Below are positions 53,399 through 55,204 of a stretch of DNA of 64,000 nucleotides, piece by piece. The stretch lies in the NCBI RefSeq assembly GCF_009914755.1, contig NC_060930.1. One strand, 5' to 3'. The position numbers and the translations under genes are program-made. Below the pieces are notes generated by a model. It searched no databases, was not told the origin of the DNA, and saw only the letters and a list, made by a program, of their open reading frames with translations. The DNA is from the human T2T-CHM13v2.0 reference genome, Homo sapiens. Positions within the stretch are counted from its first letter, which is position 1, and every line of letters starts with the position of its first letter.

Positions 53399-54141
53399 GA
53401 ATCTATGTCTTCGTATGCTAGATGAAGTCAACTCTTTCAGAGGGCTGAAAGAGAAAAGCGAAATTAGATCATATGTATGAAATTCTTACATGGTGCCTGG
53501 CACATAAGTGCTTAATAAACAATTGCAATTAGTATTATTAACTCTAATCAGATATTGTTGTTTTAAACAAGGGAGTCACTCAAAAAGGTACATGCAGACT
53601 TCTCTGTAAGAAAAAAAAAAAATATATATATATATGTTTACACACACATACACATACACACACACACAAATATATAAGGCTAGGTCTTAATGCCTCTTTC
53701 CTCAAATCAAAGCAAAAATCTGTTTCCTTGTCCAGTTACTTCTATTTAGTTTGGGAATTAGGCCTTCCAGTCCATGCATTTAATTCTATTCCTGGCCTGC
53801 TTAAATTAGAATGAGCCTCAAAGATAGAAGACCAAGACATACAGGTGCTTGTATACCTATATACAACAAGGTATATAGGTATTTATTTTCATATTCAGAA
53901 AAAAATCTAGTTTTTACCCATACATTCATTCAAGACACATTTATTAAACACCAAATTGGTAGCAAGAATGAACATATTAGTAATAATTTTTCTCTCAGAA
54001 AAATATATCCTATTTTCTATATTTATTTTCTATAGATTCTCTTTTAATGTTTGTTTGCATCTTGCAAATTTCCATGTTACTTTCTGGCTTAACTACCTCA
54101 GGCTGGGCACGGGAGATGATTCTATGGAGAGTTAAAACTTT

Positions 54142-54452
54142 TTCTTTTTCTTTTTCTTTTTCTTTTTTTTGATACGGAGGCTTGCTCCGTTGCCCAGGCT
54201 GGAGTGCAGTGGCGCGATCTCAGCTCACCGCAACCTCCGCCTCCTGGGTTCAAGTGATTCTCCTGCTTCAGCCTCCTGAGTAGCTGGGATTACAGGTGCC
54301 CACCACCACACCCAGCTAAGTTTTGTAGTTTTAGTAGAGATGGGGTTTCACTATGTTAGCCAGGCTGGTCTTGAACTCCTGATCTCAGGTGATCCACCCG
54401 CCTCGGCCTCCCAAAGTGCTGGGATTACAGGCATGAGCCACTGCGCCTGGCA
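54142..54452 (-). mobile_element. AluS inserted into the captured segment
   Basis: TSD aaaacttt. Confidence 0.92.
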
Positions 54453-54577
54453 AAAACTTTCTTAAATATATGTATAATATATAAAAACCAAGGATAAAAG
54501 TGATGCTTAAAAATAAACTCATTTGAGTTATAGGAGTAGAAACGGAGTGCCCCAAATGCCCCTGGTAAAATGGATGC

Positions 54578-54900
54578 ACCCAGGCACAGTGGCTCACGTC
54601 TGTAATCTCAGCACATTGGGAGGCCAAGGCGGGTGAATCACTTGAGCCCAGAGGTTTGAGACCAGCCTGGGCAACATGGTGAAAACCCCATCTCTACAAA
54701 ACATTTTAACAAAATTAGCCAGGTGTGTTGATGCACATTTGTCCCAGCTACTCAGGAGGCTGTGGTGGGAGGATCACTTGAGCCCAGGAGGTCAAGGGTG
54801 CAGTAAGCCATGATGGTGCCACTGCACTCCAGCCTGAGTGACAGAGTGAGACCCTGTCTCAGAAAAATGAAAATAGAAGTAAATAAATAAAACAAAATTT
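54578..54900 (+). mobile_element. AluJ (3' part of the composite at 54101-54914)
   Basis: Dimer with AluJ features; ctacctca after the tail. Confidence 0.9.
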
Positions 54901-55204
54901 AAAAGTCTACCTCATATTTGAAAACAAAGTCTGTATCACTGTACTAATTTTATGTGAAGTCAAAATTACAGAATACCCAATGCTTGTGAACATTTTAAAA
55001 AGGTTTCTAGAGGGACAAAAATGCTAGCACTCATTCTATTTGTGAGCAATCATCTTTTTTGAAGTGGAAAATCTAGAATGTTTCTCATCTAACCTAGAGA
55101 CTCTGAAATGCCCACTAATGGAGAGCCAGTCTGGTGGTGTATAACCTTCATGTCTGACCTGGGATTCTGTGGATCATGTGTCTCATCCACTGTATTTCAG
55201 TGGT

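What the first reader, a model, noticed from the sequence alone, without database searches (positions are those of the whole stretch)
54093..54914. Alu-mediated capture: 140 bp of flank plus an AluJ from 14.2-14.6 kb pasted, inverted, into another Alu site 40 kb away
Seen, in order: ctacctca (54093-54100); a 12-nt Alu head ggctgggcacgg; the reverse complement of 14501-14639, later split by an AluS; a full AluJ with tail; ctacctca again (54907-54914). The AluJ abuts the segment just as the AluJ at 14173-14492 does, and both share non-consensus bases (tgttg...cacatttgt). Inference: a resident Alu broke near its 5' end, invaded the paralogous Alu, copied through its 5' flank and rejoined non-homologously. 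The alternative is a 5'-transducing retrotransposition with a template switch. The nested AluS dates it to before or during the AluS era. Repeat masking would leave this unexplained.
Basis: partly seen in the sequence, partly recalled or inferred. Interest (0 to 1): 0.7.

Follow-up and report, generated by a model that had tools for sequence, protein, structure and literature searches.

The report
Alu overwritten by neighbour, flank captured
A human Alu repeat site carries an inverted copy of about 140 bases of unique DNA plus the adjoining Alu from 40 kb away, likely left by an ancient DNA repair event that copied from the wrong Alu, ran past its end and was rejoined; a tidy fossil of a known kind of repair, with no sign of function.

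Summary
At 54093-54914 one 8-bp repeat pair frames a 12-nt Alu head, an inverted copy of 14492-14639 (split by a later AluS-type Alu) and a J-type Alu. The segment has 2 hits genome-wide, homology stops at both frame ends, and both Alus carry a three-base variant matched at 12 places genome-wide against 131,822 for the common form. The Alu at 14173-14491 is the donor: it keeps its own target-site duplication, whose 5' copy travelled to the recipient. Both target-site pairs are intact, so there was no crossover. Best reading (0.70): a broken end in an Alu at the recipient invaded the inverted donor Alu, copied past its 5' end and rejoined without homology (one-sided invasion or a two-switch replication event). 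Against: a tree does not group the two Alus, and a resident-derived 3' half is not shown. Copies differ at 18 of 147 flank sites, placing the event late in the AluJ era, before the nested AluS. A known class of mechanism; no paper on this anatomy was found in 10 searches.

The parts
54093..54100 (+). 5' copy of recipient target-site duplication (exact 8 bp; possibly the rest of a 14-bp TSD at a TT/AAAA site)
54101..54112 (+). 12-nt Alu 5' head (consensus with two CpG decays), starting with the full GG that the donor Alu lacks; likely remnant of the recipient Alu
54113..54113 (+). non-homologous junction; one G that matches neither the Alu continuation nor the donor; no clear microhomology
54114..54144 (+). 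captured donor flank, first piece (inverted copy of about 14639-14610)
54145..54451 (-). nested AluS-type element inserted later into the captured flank, with a degenerate 9-10 bp TSD (54134-54144 / 54452-54461); the donor shows the empty site
54452..54566 (+). captured donor flank, second piece (inverted copy of about 14618-14505)
54567..54578 (+). copy of the donor's 5' TSD, carried along; 10 of 12 bases match the donor's 3' TSD
54579..54860 (+). J-type Alu; donor-derived at least to position 159; origin of the 3' half unresolved
54861..54906 (+). degenerate A-rich tail
54907..54914 (+). 3' copy of recipient TSD
14505..14639 (-). donor 5' flank that was copied (two copies found in the genome)
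14492..14504 (-). donor 5' TSD
14173..14491 (-). donor AluJ with A tail, intact
14165..14176 (-). donor 3' TSD (overlaps the end of the tail); absent from the recipient

Best explanation
The recipient site holds an inverted copy of the donor AluJ's 5' part and about 148 bp upstream of it inside its own target-site duplication, likely made when a broken DNA end in an Alu at the recipient invaded the donor Alu 40 kb away, copied past its 5' end and rejoined without homology. Shown: copy, direction, intact donor, both TSD pairs in place (no crossover), a non-homologous left junction at Alu position 12, donor bases to position 159, later AluS insertion. Inferred: (1) an Alu had entered the recipient site by ordinary L1-driven insertion; (2) it broke or a fork collapsed in it; (3) the tail-side end paired with the young, inverted donor Alu; (4) synthesis ran through the donor head, TSD and flank; (5) only 12 nt of Alu were left on the other end, too few to anneal, so end-joining closed the gap. 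Strand invasion plus end-joining and a two-switch replication event (FoSTeS/MMBIR) give the same product and are counted together. The result is likely neutral.
For: Donor keeps a TSD around the Alu alone; the recipient holds the 5' copy only and has its own TSD around the whole. Two hits for the segment. Rare shared triple variant, 12 versus 131,822 genome-wide. Flank (18 of 147) and Alu non-CpG (28 of 211) differences agree, and four segments are homogeneous (p 0.34), as one event predicts. Donor and recipient lie 40 kb apart: expected for DNA templating (Alu conversion favours neighbours, PMC8230782 introduction; breaks in an Alu likely use a nearby Alu, PMC9675761 passage), while an RNA copy would land anywhere (inference; 64 kb of 3.1 Gb). 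The flank holds two T4 runs in sense, which stop polymerase III (rule as stated in bioRxiv 2024.04.29.591526). The head carries the first G that both donor and copy lack.
Against: The ML tree of 22 AluJ does not pair donor and copy, with low support throughout; 4 of 275 other pairs are as close or closer, and shared derived sites (6) are not extreme among pairs. Positions 2-118 show 0 shared private changes once the variable sites 101-103 are set aside, and the copies differ at position 105. A resident 3' half is not shown: 0 shared changes in 99 sites versus 4 in 112 gives P 0.08-0.15, and CpG states lean slightly the other way (LR 1.5-1.8 for shared history). Alu conversion is reported to act mostly within about 10 kb, less than 40 kb. 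The extra G at 54113 would fit a reverse-transcribed cap (recalled). The outer frame looks like any L1-driven insertion.
Confidence: 0.7

Rival explanations
1. Insertion-coupled recombination: a new Alu was being inserted at the recipient site, and the unfinished intermediate (cDNA end or nicked new copy) invaded the nearby donor Alu, copied its flank and was then joined to the 12 nt already made on the other strand. Same DNA copying step, but no older resident Alu.
For: TSD, tail and TT/AAAA-like site frame the whole; no base proves an older resident; proximity is explained as well.
Against: Needs a J-type insertion when the donor had already gained about 2 changes per 100 non-CpG sites (4 of 211); how a 12-nt head arises in that orientation is contrived (inference).
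Confidence: 0.12
2. RNA route: a polymerase II read-through transcript over the donor was primed at the donor's A tail, copied 148 nt into the 5' flank (5' transduction), then switched to the first 12 nt of another Alu RNA.
For: One TSD pair, tail and endonuclease-like site, as in class 1 templated insertions (PMC5110952); all parts in sense, as in template-switch chimeras (bioRxiv 2025.02.02.635956); extra G at the junction; donor lies on the AGPAT4 strand about 8 kb upstream of its annotated start (hub annotation).
Against: Landing 40 kb from the source is very unlikely for an RNA copy (inference); Alu parts of L1 chimeras are mostly full length, not 12 nt; no 3' transduction was confirmed among 118,489 AluY (that study did not test 5' cases); two rare steps are needed.
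Confidence: 0.08
3. Two steps: flank plus donor Alu was pasted into a resident Alu at position 12 as a repair patch, and the two tandem Alus later collapsed into one by single-strand annealing.
For: Gives the same final sequence; patches from elsewhere are known (class 2 templated insertions).
Against: Two events; the patch would have to end in or at an Alu in the same orientation by chance.
Confidence: 0.07
4. Artefact or ordinary repeat: the segment is part of an old repeat family or a segmental duplication, and head and TSD are chance.
For: The donor's upstream neighbour (14660-14726) has a 79% match on chr7, so old repeat remnants are near; the genome search gives lower bounds.
Against: Two hits only; outer flanks unrelated; TSD chance rate 84 of 31,862 and lone head 3 in 264 kb; triple variant.
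Confidence: 0.03

Closest known systems
One-sided invasion / coupled homologous and non-homologous repair (Belmaaza and Chartrand 1994; Richardson and Jasin 2000; Puchta 1998)
   Same: One junction by homology, the other by end-joining; donor unchanged; donor flank copied. Definition seen as a passage in PMC9369344; the three primary papers seen only as reference entries, contents recalled.
   Different: Those are engineered breaks in cells; this is a fixed natural germline event between two dispersed Alus, read from TSDs.
Alu-Alu non-allelic gene conversion (Doronina et al. 2021, PMC8230782)
   Same: One-way replacement of part of an Alu by another at a fixed site; partial tracts give hybrids.
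   Different: Here the tract leaves the shared homology, adds about 148 bp of non-Alu DNA and leaves a 12-nt stub. That screen left out AluJ and loci with other repeats nearby.
Alu-mediated rearrangements (TEMR; FoSTeS/MMBIR with inverted Alus)
   Same: Template switch between inverted Alus, with a second non-homologous junction; complex breakpoints at Alu inversions are reported (PMC9675761; FoSTeS, PMC2583991).
   Different: No deletion, duplication or inversion of the 40-kb interval is implied; only a short inverted copy.
Templated sequence insertion polymorphisms, class 1 and 2 (PMC5110952)
   Same: Short copy of sequence from elsewhere; size in the same range; class 1 has TSD and tail.
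   Different: Donors there are distant and thought to pass through RNA; here the donor is local, the tail is an Alu tail and the TSD likely predates the copy.
5' transduction and template-switch chimeras of L1/SVA
   Same: 5' TSD lies upstream of the element with source flank in between (PMC3024322).
   Different: An Alu head stands in front of the flank, the source is 40 kb away, and polymerase III could not read the flank.

Membership tests
One-sided invasion product | Donor left intact (non-reciprocal) | tested here: met
   Donor Alu, both TSD copies and flank present
One-sided invasion product | One junction non-homologous | tested here: met
   Head/flank junction at 54112-54114, no clear microhomology
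One-sided invasion product | Other junction inside shared homology (chimeric Alu) | tested here: inconclusive
   Donor 5' TSD and recipient 3' TSD flank one Alu, so the switch lies between position 159 and the tail end; a resident 3' half is not shown, P 0.08-0.15
One-sided invasion product | Recipient homologous sequence existed before the event | not testable with these tools
   No other primate genome is held (no relatives)
Alu-Alu gene conversion (strict) | Recipient TSD retained, no crossover | tested here: met
Alu-Alu gene conversion (strict) | Tract confined to the Alu homology | tested here: not met
   About 148 bp of donor flank copied
5' transduction by L1 machinery | TSD, A tail and TT/AAAA-type site around the whole insert | tested here: met
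   8-bp exact TSD; the TT/AAAA reading needs a 4-nt loss in the 5' copy
5' transduction by L1 machinery | Source flank directly follows the 5' TSD | tested here: not met
   A 12-nt Alu head lies between them; the donor has no such head there
5' transduction by L1 machinery | A transcript covering flank and element | not testable with these tools
   Polymerase III is excluded by two T4 runs; ancient polymerase II read-through cannot be tested
Segmental duplication | At least 1 kb, at least 90% identity, homology not bounded by TSDs (definition recalled) | tested here: not met
   About 450 bp at 80%; outer flanks unrelated
Multi-copy repeat or composite element family | Further dispersed copies of the segment | tested here: not met
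   2 matches genome-wide, a lower bound

The most novel reading that the evidence does not exclude
TSD-head-flank-Alu-TSD composites are a recurrent, unannotated class in primate genomes: dated fossils of one-sided invasion between diverged Alus that shuffle short unique DNA, mimic Alu 5' transduction, and would let donor distance, orientation, tract length and tolerated divergence of germline homeologous repair be measured from the reference genome alone. Here it is 1 of 175 Alus scanned, and that one was picked beforehand.
Probability: 0.3. Interest if true: 0.6.

Novelty: new member of a known kind. Interest (0 to 1): 0.32.

Why it matters
For this locus little: about 450 bp of likely neutral DNA outside the listed enhancers and genes. 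Its use is as a clean natural record of a repair route known mainly from engineered breaks, with donor, recipient, direction and relative date readable from target-site duplications. It also warns that source flank inside an Alu's TSD need not mean transduction. If such composites are common, they give a genome-wide assay of Alu-primed copying of unique DNA in the germline.

Tried and rejected
Multi-copy family: rejected. Ordinary segmental duplication: rejected. Alu-Alu inversion of the interval: rejected because each site keeps its own TSD pair and the donor flank goes on in place; outgroup order not checked. Reverse direction (54 kb to 14 kb): rejected because the 14-kb Alu has a TSD around the Alu alone and lacks head and nested Alu. 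Minor AluJ subfamily as source of the shared bases: unlikely, 12 matches of which 4 are identical chr15 copies. Polymerase III transcript of the whole: rejected by T4 runs. Tree of AluJs: uninformative and does not pair the copies (22 of 24 rows, 2 badly aligned partial elements dropped, first 14 positions, CpG sites and linker removed). Locating the switch point inside the Alu: no power. The ungapped windows outside the junction were one base out of register and are not used; the canonical-TSD count was a script fault, redone (69 of 180 Alus with an exact TSD of 7 or more). Local scan for more composites: 2 of 175 Alus had a displaced head with TSD, this one and an ordinary Alu-in-tail doublet. 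Seven papers asked for by recalled or listed PMC id were not held. PMC4052342 and PMC7615360 passages gave only general background.

Full report
Observation. On the plus strand: ctacctca (54093-54100), a 12-nt Alu head (54101-54112), one G, an inverted copy of 14639-14492 (54114-54578) interrupted by a minus-strand Alu (about 54145-54451), a full Alu (54579-54860), an A-rich tail and ctacctca again (54907-54914). The names AluJ and AluS for the two groups are recalled; no repeat library was available.

Is it more than chance? The segment has two matches in the genome, donor and copy (the tool warns that counts are lower bounds). The left outer flank of the recipient is single copy. Outer flanks of donor and recipient are unrelated: their local scores were reached by 41 of 200 and 18 of 200 shuffles. 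An 8-mer before one Alu's head is found behind another Alu's tail in 84 of 31,862 mismatched pairs. Perfect 12-nt heads without Alu continuation occur 3 times in 264 kb, and one sits exactly at this junction.

Direction and outcome. The Alu at 14173-14491 has its own degenerate TSD (14492-14504 and 14165-14176). The recipient holds a copy of the 5' member directly before its Alu, matching the donor's 3' member at 10 of 12 bases, but not the 3' member behind the tail. So the 14-kb element is the donor. Each site keeps its own TSD pair, so no crossover or inversion is needed. The recipient frame may be a 14-bp TSD at a TT/AAAA site with four bases lost from the 5' copy (inference). The head begins with the G that donor and copy both lack, so it does not come from the donor.

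How far does the copy reach into the Alu? Against a consensus of 22 control AluJ, donor and copy share T at positions 148, 158 and 159; 0, 3 and 0 of 22 controls do. A pattern with these three bases matches 12 places in the genome, two being donor and copy and four being identical chr15 copies; the same pattern with the common bases matches 131,822. The pattern was fitted to the two copies, so this is a frequency and not a blind test. The donor tract therefore reaches position 159 or beyond, unless a later short conversion moved these bases. Results against: whole-element distance is not decisive (4 of 275 other pairs are as close or closer; a chr17 AluJ is nearer to both), the tree does not pair them, and positions 2-118 have no shared private change outside the variable sites set aside. 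This is what a young donor predicts: of 211 non-CpG sites 4 changes are shared, 15 private to the donor and 13 to the copy, and 6 of 26 CpG sites decayed in opposite directions. Whether the 3' half is from a resident Alu is open: 0 shared changes in 99 sites against 4 in 112 (P 0.08, or 0.15 counted as 3 events), while CpG states lean weakly to shared history (LR 1.5-1.8).

Age. The flank copies differ at 18 of 147 sites (95% interval 7-19%; K2P 0.135), the Alus at 28 of 211 non-CpG sites, and four segments are homogeneous (p 0.34). That is about 0.07 per lineage. The nested Alu differs by 0.047 from the non-J consensus, in line with a later arrival. With recalled primate branch lengths this falls on the simian stem, roughly 45-60 million years ago; the calibration comes from no call.

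Mechanism. One end of the insert is bounded inside Alu homology, the other by a blunt junction; the donor is intact, local and inverted. The simplest path is that the tail-side end of a broken Alu at the recipient invaded the donor Alu, copied through its head, TSD and flank, and was joined to the other end, which kept only 12 Alu bases. A longer stub would likely have annealed and given a plain conversion, which explains why the stub is short (inference). A replication event with two template switches gives the same product. I put 0.70 on this group. An insertion intermediate doing the invading gets 0.12, an RNA 5' transduction with template switch 0.08, paste then collapse 0.07, artefact 0.03. 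The RNA route has TSD, tail, sense orientation and an extra junction G for it, but it must land 40 kb from its source and switch to position 12 of an Alu RNA; a polymerase III transcript is excluded by two T4 runs in the flank.

Comparison with print. One-sided invasion, with one junction by homology and the other by end-joining, is described in a passage of PMC9369344; Belmaaza and Chartrand 1994, Richardson and Jasin 2000 and Woodward 2005 were seen only as reference entries, their contents are recalled. Alu-Alu conversion, including partial tracts and a preference for neighbours within about 10 kb, is in PMC8230782 (part 1 of 4 read). PMC9675761 (passages) covers Alu-mediated rearrangements and complex inversion breakpoints. 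PMC5110952 (parts 1-2 of 4) defines templated insertion classes. bioRxiv 2024.04.29.591526 (parts 1-2 of 3) confirmed no 3' transduction among 118,489 AluY and did not test 5' cases. bioRxiv 2025.02.02.635956 and PMC3024322 (passages) cover chimeras and 5' transduction of L1. PMC4888836, PMC2583991, PMC3678771, PMC7615360 and PMC4052342 were seen as passages. Ten searches found no paper on this locus or on a head-flank-Alu composite; the library lacks most subscription papers and no supplements were opened, where locus lists could hold it.

Verdict. Real, well resolved and likely neutral: it overlaps no listed gene or enhancer (hub annotation). It works like one-sided invasion and meets the two features that could be tested fully; it fails strict gene conversion, simple 5' transduction and segmental duplication. 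New member of a known kind; interest 0.32. The open upside is a genome-wide class of such fossils, which a scan of 175 Alus could not address.

Noticed in passing
window 14173-14203: The old donor AluJ has a pure A tail of about 31 nt, unusual for its age; likely a recent slippage expansion.
   Followed up: no
window 14660-14726: Just upstream of the copied segment, 79% match over 68 bp to a chr7 site (L027); likely an old repeat remnant (resembles an ancient L1 3' end, recalled).
   Followed up: partly
window 55089-55149: 84% match over 61 bp, inverted, to a site about 174 kb upstream on the same chromosome (L025:1501-1561); old repeat remnant or another short local copy.
   Followed up: partly
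window 13740-13885: Multi-copy old repeat downstream of the donor, with four matches in 264 kb; LTR-like (recalled).
   Followed up: no
L032:2827-3300: One 13-bp TSD frames an internally deleted Alu with tail followed by a full Alu: likely an Alu inserted into the tail of an older one.
   Followed up: partly
window 55196-55700: A shortened minus-strand Alu (55201-55340) inside what reads as an L1 3' region (label recalled).
   Followed up: no
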